Of a stretch of DNA of 64,000 nt, positions 35,170-37,722 are shown one piece after another (the stretch's first letter is position 1; the number at the start of each line of letters is the position of its first letter). Under the pieces are notes generated by a model, which saw nothing but the letters and a program-made list of their open reading frames with translations, had not been told where the DNA came from and made no database searches. The stretch is from a virus (Duplodnaviria > Caudoviricetes), in IMG/VR virus record IMGVR_UViG_3300033073_001126, positions 2,881 to 66,880 of that record; one strand, written 5' to 3'. The translations under genes and the position numbers were made by a program.

Positions 35170-35449
35170 CAAATTCACTTGCTTCGTGAGGGGCGTGATT
35201 GAATCCGGTGTTGTCATCCAGCACTCCGGCAAGGTGCTTCGCAATGAAGCAAAGATGCACTTCAACCGCCTGATGCATCACGCTCAGGAGTTTGAAAGGT
35301 TCCTGCATCAAGGGCTTGGCCCAGAGATGGCAGAGGCCGAGGACGACATCAACTCCGCTATCGTTGGGATGGTGTGGCAATTGTACGACCTCCCTGCGGA
35401 GGAGCGTGATAGGTTTGTTGAACACATAAACAATTTTGAGCCAAAATGA
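35147..35449 (+). CDS. Hypothetical protein
   Basis: 100 aa, overlapping both LytTR2 and the MTase start. Confidence 0.6.
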   Translation: MQKKKDFSKFTCFVRGVIESGVVIQHSGKVLRNEAKMHFNRLMHHAQEFERFLHQGLGPEMAEAEDDINSAIVGMVWQLYDLPAEERDRFVEHINNFEPK

Positions 35450-37722
35450 AATACGGATCAGTATGCAGCGGTATAGAAGCCGCCTCAGTAGCATGGGAGT
35501 CCTTGGGATGGCAAGCCCAATGGTATTCCGAAATAGAACACTTCCCTTCGGCAGTGCTTGCCCACCGATTCCCAACGGTGCCAAACTTGGGAGATATGAC
35601 ACAAATACATAATTCAGAACATTTCAATGGGAACTCAATTGACCTTCTCGTGGGCGGAACCCCCTGCCAAAGTTTCTCAGTCGCCGGCCTCAGAAAAGGA
35701 TTGGACGACACTCGTGGTCAGCTCATGCTCACCTTTTGCGAACTTGCTGCAAGAAAACGGCCTAAGTGGGTCGTCTGGGAAAATGTCCCCGGTGTCCTTT
35801 CAAGCAACAAAGGAGAAGACCTTGCAAGCTTTTTGGGACTCCTCACGGGACGGGAAATTCATCCCCCTGTCGGAGGTTGGAAAAATAGCGGAATCATCGA
35901 AGGAATCGGAAGCGCATACGGAGTCGCCTGGACAGTGCTGGATGCACAGCATTTTGGAGTGGCACAGCGGCGCAGAAGAATCTTTGCTGTCGGATACCTT
36001 GGAGACTGGCGACCTGCCGCAGCGGTATTATTTGAGTCGTACCGCTTGTCAGGGGATATTAAGGAGAGCAGAAAAAAGAGGAAAGCAACTGCCTCAGATG
36101 TTGAAGGAGGCGTTGGAGGCGGTGGCATTCCAAGGGTGAGTGGTTCATTGGATACAGAATGTGGAGGAGGAAAACTCACTCATCAATCTGTTAATAATGG
36201 ACACCTTGTTCCATCTTGGTGGAACGGAGAGCAAACTGCCGCCACATTAACCAAGCAGAATGCCAATGGAGCGCAACGGATGCCAGATAAGGATAATCTT
36301 GGGGCGGTGTTGCAACCATTAACACACGCATTCAAAGTGCGTGGTGGGTCTGAAACAGAAACCGGAGAGCAGGGAGGCACTCCTGGGAAGAAAGCCGGAA
36401 AAGGCTACCTTGGGCCAGATGAACTTGCCTTCACCATTGGCACTACGCAGGATCAACAGATAGCGCAGCCAATTGCAATCCAAGGCAACCTTATCGGAAG
36501 AACTGAAGGAGGCCCACAAGGAATAGGTGTTAGTCAAGAGGGCAATATGTACACTCTTACTAAAGCAGATGTTCACGGAGTGGCACAACCAATTGCGTTT
36601 CAGCAAAACACAAGAGATGAGGTTAGGTACATTAATGGAGATGGGTCTATTGCTGGAGCATTGTCTGCAAGTTCTGGGATGAAACAAACAAATTATGTGG
36701 CGCAACCAGTGCCTTTCCGCAAAGCAAAGAGGGCGCAGAGTAAGGATGACCACGAAACCTGGGAGCAGGATGAGAAGACAAACACTCTGAATGCTTTCGA
36801 TACAGGAGACATCCGAACTACGCAAGCCGTTGTGCAGCCAATTGCGGTGGATTTGTACAACGGAACTATTCAAGGTCAAACTACTTGCACGCTTACAAGC
36901 GAAATGGGTGTAGCAGGGCATAGTGGGCCAAAATTATTGCAACCAATTGCCGTGGATGTGTACAATCAAAGCATATCAGGAAATAAGGTTGGCATAGTTA
37001 GAGAGCAACACGGGACAAATATGAATGCCATATTACAACCAATTGCCGTGGACACTTACAACCAAACAATCAATGAGCATAGTGTTCAAACCATCCGCTC
37101 AGATGGAAATCATACAGACAGAACTGGTGCGGTGTTACATCCAATTGCCGTGGACACTTACAATCAGACTATCAATGAGCATACCACTCAGACCATTAGA
37201 GCAAATAATACTACTGAGCATATTGGGGCGGTGTTGACATCGCAATCTCCAACAATCATTGACAGAGCAGCTTTCAACCAAGGAGAGAATGCTCAGTATG
37301 ACATCAAGATTGAGGAAGGAGAAACAATGCCTTCGCTTGTTGCGAGAGGCCCACACGGAGTTGGGCAACCAAAGCCACCAACAATGGCTATTTTAGGAGG
37401 ACAACACCCAAATGCGGCCATTGGTGAGAATACTTGTCCCACAATAACTAATGCATCAGGCGCAGGAGGCGGACATATTCCTTTAGTTCCTCAACAACCA
37501 ACAATGGCCATCCGAAGACTTACACCAAAAGAATGCGAAAGGCTACAAGGCTTTCCTGATGATTGGACTCTTATCCCTTACCGGAATAAGTCGGAAGAAC
37601 AATGCCCCGATGGGCCAAGGTACAAGGCTTGCGGAAATTCAATGGCAGTTCCCGTGATGCGTTGGATTGGGCAGAGGATTCAAATGGTGGAGGGCATTCT
37701 CAAGGAATTACATAAGGAATAA
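35446..37722 (+). CDS. C5-cytosine DNA methyltransferase with greatly expanded modular variable region
   Basis: Motif I SVCSGIEA, IV GGTPCQSFS, VI WENVPG, VIII QRRRRIF, IX RRLTPKECERLQGFP, X RYKACGNS; about 460 aa of repeats between VIII and IX. Confidence 0.93.
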   Translation: MKYGSVCSGIEAASVAWESLGWQAQWYSEIEHFPSAVLAHRFPTVPNLGDMTQIHNSEHFNGNSIDLLVGGTPCQSFSVAGLRKGLDDTRGQLMLTFCELAARKRPKWVVWENVPGVLSSNKGEDLASFLGLLTGREIHPPVGGWKNSGIIEGIGSAYGVAWTVLDAQHFGVAQRRRRIFAVGYLGDWRPAAAVLFESYRLSGDIKESRKKRKATASDVEGGVGGGGIPRVSGSLDTECGGGKLTHQSVNNGHLVPSWWNGEQTAATLTKQNANGAQRMPDKDNLGAVLQPLTHAFKVRGGSETETGEQGGTPGKKAGKGYLGPDELAFTIGTTQDQQIAQPIAIQGNLIGRTEGGPQGIGVSQEGNMYTLTKADVHGVAQPIAFQQNTRDEVRYINGDGSIAGALSASSGMKQTNYVAQPVPFRKAKRAQSKDDHETWEQDEKTNTLNAFDTGDIRTTQAVVQPIAVDLYNGTIQGQTTCTLTSEMGVAGHSGPKLLQPIAVDVYNQSISGNKVGIVREQHGTNMNAILQPIAVDTYNQTINEHSVQTIRSDGNHTDRTGAVLHPIAVDTYNQTINEHTTQTIRANNTTEHIGAVLTSQSPTIIDRAAFNQGENAQYDIKIEEGETMPSLVARGPHGVGQPKPPTMAILGGQHPNAAIGENTCPTITNASGAGGGHIPLVPQQPTMAIRRLTPKECERLQGFPDDWTLIPYRNKSEEQCPDGPRYKACGNSMAVPVMRWIGQRIQMVEGILKELHKE
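35627..36139 (+). CDS. Overprinted +1-frame ORF, M.EcoHK31I beta-like methyltransferase subunit
   Basis: 170 aa fully inside the MTase gene; C-terminal LLSDTLETGDLPQRYYLS...ILRRAEKRGKQLP resembles the beta polypeptide and the post-motif-VIII segment of monomeric C5 MTases. Confidence 0.7.
   Translation: MGTQLTFSWAEPPAKVSQSPASEKDWTTLVVSSCSPFANLLQENGLSGSSGKMSPVSFQATKEKTLQAFWDSSRDGKFIPLSEVGKIAESSKESEAHTESPGQCWMHSILEWHSGAEESLLSDTLETGDLPQRYYLSRTACQGILRRAEKRGKQLPQMLKEALEAVAFQG
36127..37500 (+). repeat. Array of about 12 in-frame cassettes (roughly 30-50 aa each) in the MTase variable region
   Basis: Junction CCAATTGC (QPIA/HPIA) at 36469, 36589, 36838, 36943, 37039 and 37141, variants at about 36315 and 36706; all spacings are multiples of 3. 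Confidence 0.85.

What the first reader, a model, noticed from the sequence alone, without database searches (positions are those of the whole stretch)
35446..37722. C5 methyltransferase with an array of about 12 TRD-like cassettes: candidate hyper-multispecific, shuffleable anti-restriction enzyme
Seen: between motifs VIII and IX lie about 12 in-frame modules of roughly 30-50 aa. Most carry a T/S-L/I core (ATLT, FTIG, YTLT, GALS, NTLN, CTLT, QTIR, QTIR, PSLV, PTIT) and end at a conserved QPIA-type junction encoded by CCAATTGC (six exact copies at 36469, 36589, 36838, 36943, 37039, 37141; spacings all multiples of 3). Four consecutive modules start AVD(L/V/T)YN and two are near-duplicates, suggesting recent expansion. 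Established: multispecific Bacillus-phage MTases (M.SPR, M.phi3TI, M.rho11s) carry a few tandem TL-containing target-recognition domains in this same position. Inference: this enzyme may methylate many different sequences, with the shared junction DNA allowing cassette gain, loss or exchange by recombination, giving a modular shield against host restriction systems.
Basis: partly seen in the sequence, partly recalled or inferred. Interest (0 to 1): 0.88.

Follow-up and report, generated by a model that had tools for sequence, protein, structure and literature searches.

The report
Eleven-cassette phage cytosine methyltransferase
A 67-kb uncultured phage encodes a DNA cytosine methylase whose DNA-reading part is a string of 11 exchangeable mini-modules that relatives carry in 149 different sets, so it probably marks several DNA sequences against host restriction, though no methylation has been measured.

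Summary
ORF 35446-37722 is a complete C5-MTase (PF00145, E 1e-50). Between motifs VIII and IX lie 11 tandem 32-51-aa modules (not 12), joined by QPIA-type junctions. Six in-frame CCAATTGC copies occur where about 0.09 is expected.

Relatives support the cassette idea. Among 180 relatives there are 0-11 modules, 31-58 module types and 149 architectures. One 320-aa enzyme has a single module. Orthologous modules have dN/dS 0.01-0.15. Differences from syntenic phages break at the junctions. The junction DNA word is uniform within a gene but differs between lineages.

M7 and M8 are not recent duplicates, because each has a closer copy in another phage. Multispecificity is inferred, not shown: no PDB TRD match, a weak match to M.SPBetaI, and no AF2 fold for the array.

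New here: the conserved +1-frame nested ORF (35627-36139) is predicted, for a homologous pair, to bind the methylase at the cassette and motif IX (ipSAE 0.82, best control 0.00). It is fused in frame ahead of the array in split relatives.

The phage also strongly avoids many palindromes (CTAG 0 of 111 expected), so methylation is not a complete shield.

This scan has flagged the same kind in about 88 other genomes. Verdict: a new variant of the Bacillus-phage multispecific MTase kind.

The parts
35446..37722 (+). C5-cytosine DNA methyltransferase gene (alpha chain), 758 aa plus stop
   Evidence: ORF; PF00145 at E 1.1e-50; phrog_116 at E 4e-89.
35446..36045 (+). Catalytic N-terminal part with motifs I-VIII: SGIEAA at aa 8-13, PCQ at 73-75, ENV at 112-114, QRRRR at 174-178
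   Evidence: Aligned to M.HhaI residues 17-134. Sequence shown. AF2 pLDDT is 70-92 here.
35627..36139 (+). Nested +1-frame ORF (170 aa), candidate beta subunit. It overlaps motifs IV-VIII and the linker and ends just before the array.
   Evidence: The +1 frame is open in all 83 related loci (median 162 codons, against 42 in the +2 frame), with a conserved ATG and a conserved LLSDTLE..YYLS..GIL.RAE.RGK.LP tail. A homologous pair is predicted to bind. The domain is found in frame ahead of cassettes in split relatives.
36046..36180 (+). Basic, Gly-rich linker (aa 201-245, SRKKRK...GGVGGGG). It contains the 9-nt tandem repeat at 36106-36125 and the end of the nested ORF.
   Evidence: Related phage L087 changes reading frame in this stretch.
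36181..36324 (+). Cassette M0 (aa 246-293, core ATLT)
   Evidence: HMM hit. This type occurs 77 times among the modules of 180 relatives.
36325..36477 (+). Cassette M1 (aa 294-344, core FTIG). It ends at the first CCAATTGC.
   Evidence: This type is the only cassette of the 320-aa homologue L061.
36478..36597 (+). Cassette M2 (aa 345-384, core YTLT)
   Evidence: dN/dS is 0.09-0.10 against L001 and L003. It is absent from L002, with the break at the junction.
36598..36714 (+). Cassette M3 (aa 385-423, core GALS). It ends in QPVP.
   Evidence: A rare type: 11 occurrences among the modules of 180 relatives.
36715..36846 (+). Cassette M4 (aa 424-467, core NTLN)
   Evidence: dN/dS is 0.01-0.04 against L002 and L003.
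36847..36951 (+). Cassette M5 (aa 468-502, core CTLT, starts VDLYN)
   Evidence: It is 97% identical in L002, with dN/dS 0.01.
36952..37047 (+). Cassette M6 (aa 503-534, core GIVR, starts VDVYN)
37048..37149 (+). Cassette M7 (aa 535-568, core QTIR, starts VDTYN)
   Evidence: Copies 92-97% identical occur in other phages.
37150..37257 (+). Cassette M8 (aa 569-604, core QTIR, starts VDTYN)
   Evidence: It is 73% identical to M7.
37258..37380 (+). Cassette M9 (aa 605-645, core PSLV)
   Evidence: dN/dS is 0.12-0.15.
37381..37503 (+). Cassette M10 (aa 646-686, core PTIT), directly before motif IX
   Evidence: weakest hit, 10.7-28 bits.
37504..37719 (+). C-terminal constant part: motif IX (RRLTPKECERLQGFPDDW, aa 690-707) and motif X (GNSMAVPV, aa 730-737)
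   Evidence: Aligned to M.HhaI residues 266-318. These columns are invariant in A1 and A3.

Best explanation
This is a phage DNA (cytosine-5) methyltransferase. Its target-recognition region is not one domain but a string of 11 short (32-51 aa) cassettes of the TRD-core type.

Shown:
- The catalytic motifs are intact.
- The cassettes are real repeats under strong purifying selection.
- Related phages carry any number (0-11) and many combinations and orders of the same cassette types, down to one cassette.
- Gains and losses break at the conserved junction (..QPIA..).
- The junction's DNA word is kept identical within a gene.

Inferred:
- Each cassette can dock in turn beside the catalytic cleft and read a different short DNA sequence. 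One enzyme would then methylate several sequences on progeny phage DNA and blunt several host restriction enzymes, as the 2-4-TRD enzymes of Bacillus phages do.
- The cassette does not work alone. A 170-aa protein is encoded in the +1 frame inside the same gene. It carries the 'LxDxLE...YYLS' segment that single-chain enzymes have between motif VIII and the TRD. It probably forms the constant scaffold on which the cassette sits, giving an alpha/beta enzyme.
- Cassettes are exchanged between phages by homologous recombination at the 8-12-nt junction word.
For: Enzyme:
- PF00145 at E 1e-50, with motifs aligned to HhaI.

Repeats:
- The HMM finds 11 modules.
- There are six in-frame CCAATTGC copies against about 0.09 expected.

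Cassette behaviour:
- 77 complete relatives selected only by their catalytic domain are 320-717 aa long and have 0-9 modules.
- Enzymes whose constant parts are 94-96% identical to L061 carry one, two or three different cassettes.
- Among 180 proteins there are 851 modules, 31-58 types and 149 architectures. Each window type has 3-19 different neighbours.

Selection:
- dN/dS is 0.01-0.15 for orthologous cassettes.

Junction recombination:
- HSPs against syntenic phages L001-L003 end or start at 36471, 36595, 36700 and 36839, which are junctions.
- Junction Pro is CCA in 9 of 9 cases and Ile is ATT in 6 of 6, against 34% and 48% genome usage.
- Other lineages use CCGATAGC or CCCATTGC, uniform within a gene, with an occasional foreign word.

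TRD nature:
- In L061 a single cassette, plus a basic/Gly-rich linker, is all that lies between motifs VIII and IX.
- On M.SPBetaI (L005), a Bacillus-phage enzyme known from the literature to be bispecific, the module HMM hits only the PTLT and FTVN cores. Its full score is beaten by 0 of 2000 shuffles.

Beta subunit:
- The nested frame is open and conserved in 83 of 83 loci.
- Synonymous divergence (dS) of the overlapped region is depressed.
- The L061 methylase with its nested product gives ipSAE 0.82/0.83/0.82, best control 0.00. This mark was reached by 58 of 80 solved complexes and 2 of 110 mismatched pairs. Contacts agree at 69% or more and partner pLDDT is at least 69. The interface includes cassette residues 209-248 and motif IX residues 254-268.
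- The same domain lies in frame ahead of the cassettes in 27 proteins that lack motifs I-VIII, and in syntenic phage L087.

Restriction pressure:
- The nine most depleted 4-mers of the window are all palindromes.
Against: - No methylation data exist for this enzyme, nor, in my literature searches, for any member of this family.
- Module profiles and single modules find no solved TRD (HhaI, HaeIII) at E up to 10.
- The similarity to M.SPBetaI is only 0.9-2.3 bits per hit.
- AF2 leaves the array (pLDDT about 30-40), and even a single cassette (pLDDT 25-43), unfolded.
- The complex was predicted for a homologous pair, not the window's own proteins. The constant parts are 67% identical and beta is 53% identical. 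The pass may reflect likeness to solved single-chain C5-MTases.
- The phage removes many C-containing palindromes (CGCG 1/75, ACGT 2/89, GGWCC 1/56; AGCGCT, CTGCAG and CAGCTG all 0). This would be unnecessary if methylation covered them.
- Conservation of QPIA at the protein level may be structural (it resembles the ..QPTMAI.. entry into motif IX) and not for recombination.
Confidence: 0.6

Rival explanations
1. Only one or a few cassettes are active, for example the one next to motif IX. The others are inert 'pseudo-TRDs' or a translated reserve that recombination can move into the active position. The enzyme would then be mono- or oligo-specific at any time.
For: - In the predicted complex the single cassette of L061 is held between beta and motif IX. 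Internal cassettes would have to loop out to reach that position.
- Inactive pseudo-domains are known in the Bacillus-phage enzymes (own knowledge: Lange et al. 1991).
- Heavy palindrome avoidance shows that protection by methylation is incomplete.
Against: - Every cassette with an orthologue is under strong purifying selection, dN/dS 0.01-0.15. That is hard to explain for silent copies.
- Each junction repeats the ..QPIA(V/F).. entry that precedes motif IX. Each cassette could therefore dock in the same way.
- Almost every type is found both as the last and as an internal cassette.
Confidence: 0.2
2. The cassettes act together as one long, repetitive DNA-binding surface. This would give relaxed or near non-specific cytosine methylation, or one long site, instead of a set of discrete specificities.
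For: - The units are repetitive, Gly-rich and predicted to be unstructured.
- Phages are known to use near non-specific methylases (M.EcoGII, cited in PMC12707154).
Against: - Enzymes with one or two cassettes exist with nearly identical cores, so a single unit suffices.
- Cassette types are discrete and conserved as types.
- Strong avoidance of many C-containing palindromes argues against blanket methylation.
Confidence: 0.1
3. Target recognition lies in the nested beta protein or the core. The array is a flexible spacer or has another role, such as protein docking.
For: - There is no significant similarity of modules to solved TRDs.
- AF2 predicts no stable fold.
- Beta is highly conserved.
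Against: - A spacer would not show type-specific conservation with dN/dS 0.01-0.15.
- It would not keep a T-L/I core in 10 of 11 units.
- A conserved beta cannot explain diversity of specificity.
- The cassette is the only variable element between motifs VIII and IX.
- There is a weak but non-random match to the TRD cores of M.SPBetaI.
Confidence: 0.07
4. The gene is an inactive relic.
For: No activity data exist.
Against: - The frame is intact over 758 codons and all catalytic motifs are present.
- Purifying selection acts on all parts.
- The position is conserved in syntenic phages.
Confidence: 0.03

Closest known systems
Multispecific C5-MTases of temperate Bacillus phages (M.SPRI, M.Phi3TI, M.Rho11sI, M.H2I, M.SPBetaI; Trautner, Noyer-Weidner and co-workers; cited in PMC12707154)
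   Same: - One catalytic core carries several tandem, roughly 40-50-aa T-L/V-containing recognition units between motifs VIII and IX.
- The enzyme is phage-borne and has an anti-restriction logic.
- The units are exchangeable.
- The window-family module HMM picks out only the two T(L/V) cores of M.SPBetaI.
   Different: - 11 units instead of 2-4.
- A different subfamily: phrog_116, the family of the C5 part of P1 Dmt.
- The units are separated by a conserved QPIA junction whose DNA word is homogenised.
- The 'LxEILE..KYYL' segment is in cis in M.SPBetaI. Here it is encoded in a nested +1 frame.
- No specificity has been measured.
M.EcoHK31I (naturally heterodimeric C5-MTase; beta chain encoded in another reading frame inside the alpha gene; PMC2836561)
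   Same: A small second polypeptide is encoded wholly inside the methylase gene in a different frame, and is predicted here (for a homologue) to bind the large chain.
   Different: - In M.EcoHK31I, beta is about 60 aa and is reported to supply motif IX (own knowledge).
- Here alpha keeps motifs IX and X. Beta (170 aa) overlaps motifs IV-VIII and corresponds to the segment between motif VIII and the TRD.
- M.EcoHK31I is monospecific (YGGCCR).
C5 half of phage P1 Dmt and the many prophage 'DNA cytosine methyltransferases' of phrog_116
   Same: Same catalytic subfamily: 44% identity over the N- and C-terminal parts and phrog_116 at E 4e-89.
   Different: Listed phage homologues cover only 35-56% of the query, i.e. 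the constant parts. The 11-cassette array of the window is at the upper extreme: relatives have 0-11 modules, and only one other protein has 11.
Split phage C5-MTases (catalytic half plus beta-cassettes-IX-X half), seen here as P0122, P0124, P0030/L087
   Same: Same parts: the beta-like domain, QPIA-type cassettes, and motifs IX-X.
   Different: The connectivity differs. There the array is fused to beta and the catalytic half is a separate chain. In the window the array is fused to the catalytic half and beta is separate.

Membership tests
C5-cytosine DNA methyltransferase (PF00145) | Profile match over the curated threshold | tested here: met
   173 bits against a cut-off of 22, E 1.1e-50.
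C5-cytosine DNA methyltransferase (PF00145) | Catalytic motifs in order: I (SAM site), IV (P-C), VI (ENV), VIII (Q-R-R), IX and X (GN) | tested here: met
   SGIEAA at 8-13, PCQ at 73-75, ENV at 112-114, QRRRR at 174-178, RRLTPKECERLQGFP at 690-704, GNS at 730-732. Aligned to HhaI residues 17-134 and 266-318.
C5-cytosine DNA methyltransferase (PF00145) | Transfers methyl to C5 of cytosine in DNA | not testable with these tools
   Needs expression and 5mC mapping.
Multispecific C5-MTases (Bacillus-phage type) | Several tandem TRD-sized units between motifs VIII and IX | tested here: met
   11 HMM-defined units of 32-51 aa.
Multispecific C5-MTases (Bacillus-phage type) | Each unit carries the T-L/V/I core of a TRD | tested here: met
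   10 of 11 units have a T/S/A-L/I core: ATLT, FTIG, YTLT, GALS, NTLN, CTLT, QTIR twice, PSLV, PTIT. M6 has GIVR.
Multispecific C5-MTases (Bacillus-phage type) | Units are homologous to experimentally defined TRDs | tested here: inconclusive
   No PDB TRD hit at E up to 10. There are two weak hits exactly on the PTLT and FTVN cores of M.SPBetaI, with the full score above 2000 of 2000 shuffles.
Multispecific C5-MTases (Bacillus-phage type) | Units are independent: they can be removed, added or reordered without loss of the others | tested here: inconclusive
   Comparative evidence only: natural enzymes with 0-11 units, 149 architectures and single-unit enzymes. Function of these variants is untested.
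Multispecific C5-MTases (Bacillus-phage type) | Several distinct methylated sequences, one per unit | not testable with these tools
Multispecific C5-MTases (Bacillus-phage type) | Single polypeptide with the conserved 'L.EILE..KYYL' segment in cis before the TRDs | tested here: not met
   M.SPBetaI has it in frame. In the window it occurs only in the +1 nested ORF, as LLSDTLETGDLPQRYYLS.
Nested-frame alpha/beta C5-MTase (M.EcoHK31I type) | Beta ORF lies wholly inside the alpha gene in another frame | tested here: met
   35627-36139 in the +1 frame. It is open in 83 of 83 related loci, with a conserved start.
Nested-frame alpha/beta C5-MTase (M.EcoHK31I type) | Alpha and beta associate | tested here: inconclusive
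   Prediction only, on the homologous L061 pair: ipSAE 0.82, best control 0.00, contacts agree at 69% or more, partner pLDDT at least 69. The mark was reached by 58 of 80 solved complexes and 2 of 110 mismatched pairs. The pass may reflect likeness to single-chain MTases.
Nested-frame alpha/beta C5-MTase (M.EcoHK31I type) | Beta supplies motif IX | tested here: not met
   Motif IX is in the alpha chain (aa 690-707). Beta has no PF00145 hit.

The most novel reading that the evidence does not exclude
The enzyme is a two-chain combinatorial methylase. A constant scaffold protein is encoded in the +1 frame inside the gene. It docks, one at a time, any of 11 roughly 40-aa cassettes, and each cassette alone specifies a different target sequence. 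Cassettes are traded between phages by recombination at a homogenised 8-12-nt junction word. The array can be wired to either chain: the catalytic half, as here, or the scaffold, as in L087. If so, a roughly 40-aa peptide would be a sufficient, portable DNA-specificity determinant for a C5-MTase. The phage gene pool would then be a ready library of such determinants.
Probability: 0.35. Interest if true: 0.85.

Novelty: new variant of a known kind. Interest (0 to 1): 0.6.

Why it matters
Arrays of target-recognition domains in one methylase are so far documented only for a handful of Bacillus phages with 2-4 domains; the 2025 review PMC12707154 cites only these. This family extends the principle to 11 units. 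It shows natural mix-and-match of about 30-60 cassette types, and it adds a nested-gene subunit.

If the cassettes do set specificity, three things follow:
- The family explains how uncultured phages cope with many restriction systems at once.
- It gives a direct handle on how about 40 residues read a DNA sequence.
- It offers parts for designer cytosine methylases.

It also matters for annotation. Gene callers miss the nested ORF and label these genes as plain 'dcm'.

Tried and rejected
- AF2 on the full protein with a 61-sequence alignment gave pLDDT about 30-40 for the array, so no fold.
- AF2 on the 320-aa single-cassette homologue left the linker and cassette at pLDDT 25-43. No fold search was therefore worthwhile.
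- A profile of the 11 modules, and single modules M2 and M3, found no methylase TRD among PDB sequences. My visual impression that M2 resembles the HhaI TRD has no statistical support and was dropped.
- The nested ORF product has no family in Pfam or PHROGs and no meaningful PDB hit.
Within-population cassette variation and native methylation could not be examined.
- Four literature searches found no characterised member of this family and no description of arrays this large. Trautner 1996 (PMC450048) is not held.
- 'Recent in-place duplication of M7/M8' was rejected, because each has closer copies in other phages.
- The idea that M0, M1, M9 and M10 form a constant scaffold was rejected, because enzymes exist that lack each of them.
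- A frame-0 A_AAA_AAG heptamer at 36072-36078 was considered as a frameshift site joining beta to the array. It was not pursued: a -1 slip from frame 0 does not enter the beta frame.
- The module profile searched against 1.84 billion representatives hits only 77 clusters. This particular QPIA-type cassette family is therefore narrow at that sensitivity.
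Full report
**The object.** The window is bases 2881-66880 of a 66,880-bp virus record. It is a tailed phage with a large terminase, a portal and a primase-helicase. 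Its terminase is only about 25% identical to those of Flavobacterium and Cellulophaga phages. ORF 35446-37722 (+) encodes 758 aa. Pfam PF00145 matches at E 1.1e-50, but only at the two ends. The HhaI alignments cover residues 6-127 and 684-745. All catalytic motifs are present. About 485 residues lie between motif VIII and motif IX.

**The observation.**
- The six CCAATTGC copies are at the stated positions and in one frame. The window as a whole is not enriched (9 found, 5.1 expected). The gene's share of that expectation is about 0.09.
- Cutting the protein at the QP(I/V)A junctions gives units that align with each other. An HMM built from them finds 11 units in the protein.
- M5-M8 are 40-46% identical to each other, and M7/M8 are 73% identical.
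- I count 11 units, not about 12. Ten have a T/S/A-L/I core.

**Are they cassettes?**
- A search with residues 200-690 found 1109 proteins, all PF00145, of 447-1324 aa. The best 120 carry 3-11 units, in different subsets and orders.
- To avoid bias from the array itself, I fetched 80 viral loci using only the first 200 residues. The 77 complete genes are 320-717 aa long and have 0-9 units.
- The shortest genes are decisive. With constant parts 94-96% identical to L061, L061 has one unit (the type of M1). L070 has the M0 type plus one other. L044 has the M1 type plus the M7/8 type. L069 has M9 plus M7/8. L077 has M9, M7/8 and the M5 type. No unit is obligatory.
- Pooling 180 proteins gives 851 units, 31-58 types and 149 architectures. 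Each of the window's types has 3-19 different neighbours.
- Orthologous units have dN/dS 0.01-0.15, at least as constrained as the catalytic domain.
- M7 and M8 each have closer copies elsewhere, 92-97% and 81-88%. The array was therefore assembled from pre-existing cassettes, not expanded in place.

**Junctions.**
- Against three syntenic 67-kb phages the flanks are colinear at 74-87% identity. Inside the gene the matches stop and restart at 36471, 36595, 36700 and 36839, which are junctions.
- In the window every junction Pro is CCA (9 of 9) and every junction Ile is ATT (6 of 6), against 34% and 48% usage in the phage.
- Other lineages use CAACCGATAGCC or CAACCCATTGCC. Within a gene the word is nearly always uniform, with an occasional foreign word.
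- The cassette bodies have diverged to 25-45% identity, so this is concerted evolution. It is what recombination at the junction word would produce.
- At the protein level the junction also resembles the ..QPTMAI.. entry into motif IX. Part of its conservation may therefore be structural.

**Are they TRDs?**
- Position argues yes. In L061 one unit, plus a basic/Gly-rich linker, is all there is between motifs VIII and IX.
- Direct homology is weak. There is no PDB TRD hit.
- On M.SPBetaI (L005), known from the literature to be bispecific, the family HMM hits only the PTLT and FTVN cores, at 0.9 and 2.3 bits. The summed score is beaten by 0 of 2000 shuffles.
- AF2 gives no fold for the array or for a single cassette.

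**The nested gene.**
- The +1 frame is open for a median of 162 codons in all 83 loci, against 42 in the +2 frame. It has a conserved ATG and a conserved tail, LLSDTLE..YYLS..AC.GIL.RAE.RGK.LP.
- M.SPBetaI has the equivalent 'LREILE..KYYL' in frame before its TRDs. The window's main frame lacks it.
- Synonymous divergence (dS) of the overlapped part is depressed: 0.17-0.83, against 0.5-3.0 elsewhere.
- For the compact homologous pair (the 320-aa L061 methylase and its 151-aa nested product, alignments A3 and A4), the complex prediction gave ipSAE 0.82, 0.83 and 0.82, with a best control of 0.00. The mark was reached by 58 of 80 solved complexes and 2 of 110 mismatched pairs. Contacts agree at 69% or more and partner pLDDT is at least 69.
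- The interface includes the cassette (residues 209-248) and motif IX (254-268).
- This is a prediction on a relative. It may reflect likeness to solved single-chain C5-MTases, which itself would say that the nested product is the missing piece of the canonical fold.
- Independent support: 27 proteins have this domain in frame, followed by cassettes and motifs IX-X but lacking motifs I-VIII. In syntenic phage L087 the catalytic half stops after about 245 aa, and the nested frame runs on into the array.
- M.EcoHK31I is the documented precedent for a beta chain nested in another frame (PMC2836561). Its beta is a different part of the enzyme.

**Context.**
- The nine most depleted 4-mers of the window are all palindromes. 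Per strand: CTAG 0 against 111 expected, CGCG 1 against 75, ACGT 2 against 89. GGWCC is 1 against 56 (both strands counted). Several 6-mers are at 0.
- CCWGG, CCGG, GCWGC, GCGC and GGCC are not purged, with ratios of 0.61-1.05.
- The phage is therefore under heavy type II restriction pressure and uses site loss as well. Methylation cannot be a complete shield. The non-purged sites are testable candidates for its targets.

**Comparison and novelty.**
- The kind, several TRDs on one C5-MTase core in a phage, is established for Bacillus phages. The 2025 review PMC12707154 cites only those.
- My searches found no characterised member of this subfamily.
- Earlier notes of this scan describe the same kind in about 88 other genomes, as well as the nested ORF. 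I re-tested mix-and-match, the nested frame and the split forms here.
- Verdict: a new variant of a known kind. The anatomy and evolution are well supported. Multispecificity and the alpha/beta mechanism are inferred.

Noticed in passing
window:35627-36139 (+): A nested +1-frame ORF (170 aa) lies inside the methylase gene. It is conserved in all 83 related loci and has no Pfam, PHROG or PDB family. For a homologous pair it is predicted to bind the methylase at the cassette and motif IX. In split relatives it is fused in frame to the array.
   Followed up: yes
window:1-64000 (whole window): Extreme palindrome avoidance. Per strand: CTAG 0 of 111 expected, CGCG 1 of 75, ACGT 2 of 89, CATG 64 of 355, GATC 56 of 198. 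GGWCC is 1 of 56 (both strands counted). AGCGCT, CAGCTG, CTGCAG and CTTAAG are all 0. CCWGG, CCGG, GCWGC, GCGC and GGCC are not purged.
   Followed up: partly
L087:2300-3400 (syntenic phage, contig of P0030): Here the catalytic half (motifs I-VIII) ends at a stop after about 245 aa. The nested-frame ORF continues in frame into the cassette array and motifs IX-X. The same parts are therefore wired differently. The frame change lies in the G-rich stretch equivalent to window 36100-36160. It could be real or an assembly indel.
   Followed up: partly
window:36072-36078 and 36106-36125: There is a frame-0 A_AAA_AAG heptamer inside the conserved SRKKRK / AEKRGK dual-coded stretch, and a GGAGGCGGT x2.2 tandem repeat just before the nested ORF's stop. 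Neither has a demonstrated role.
   Followed up: no
L007:4001-5932 and P0124: Some relatives carry a roughly 180-aa helical, non-cassette insert (..ILREKIG..QILQSD..) inside the array, between the cassettes and motif IX.
   Followed up: no
window:34295-35449 (+): Two small LytTR-like proteins and a 100-aa ORF sit directly upstream. The 100-aa ORF overlaps the methylase start by 4 nt. This order is conserved in the syntenic phages L001-L003 and L087.
   Followed up: no
window:59959-63924 (-): A 1320-aa protein matches a DarB-like antirestriction family (phrog_10089, E 1e-20) and an internal virion protein family. It may be a second, injected anti-restriction function in the same phage.
   Followed up: no
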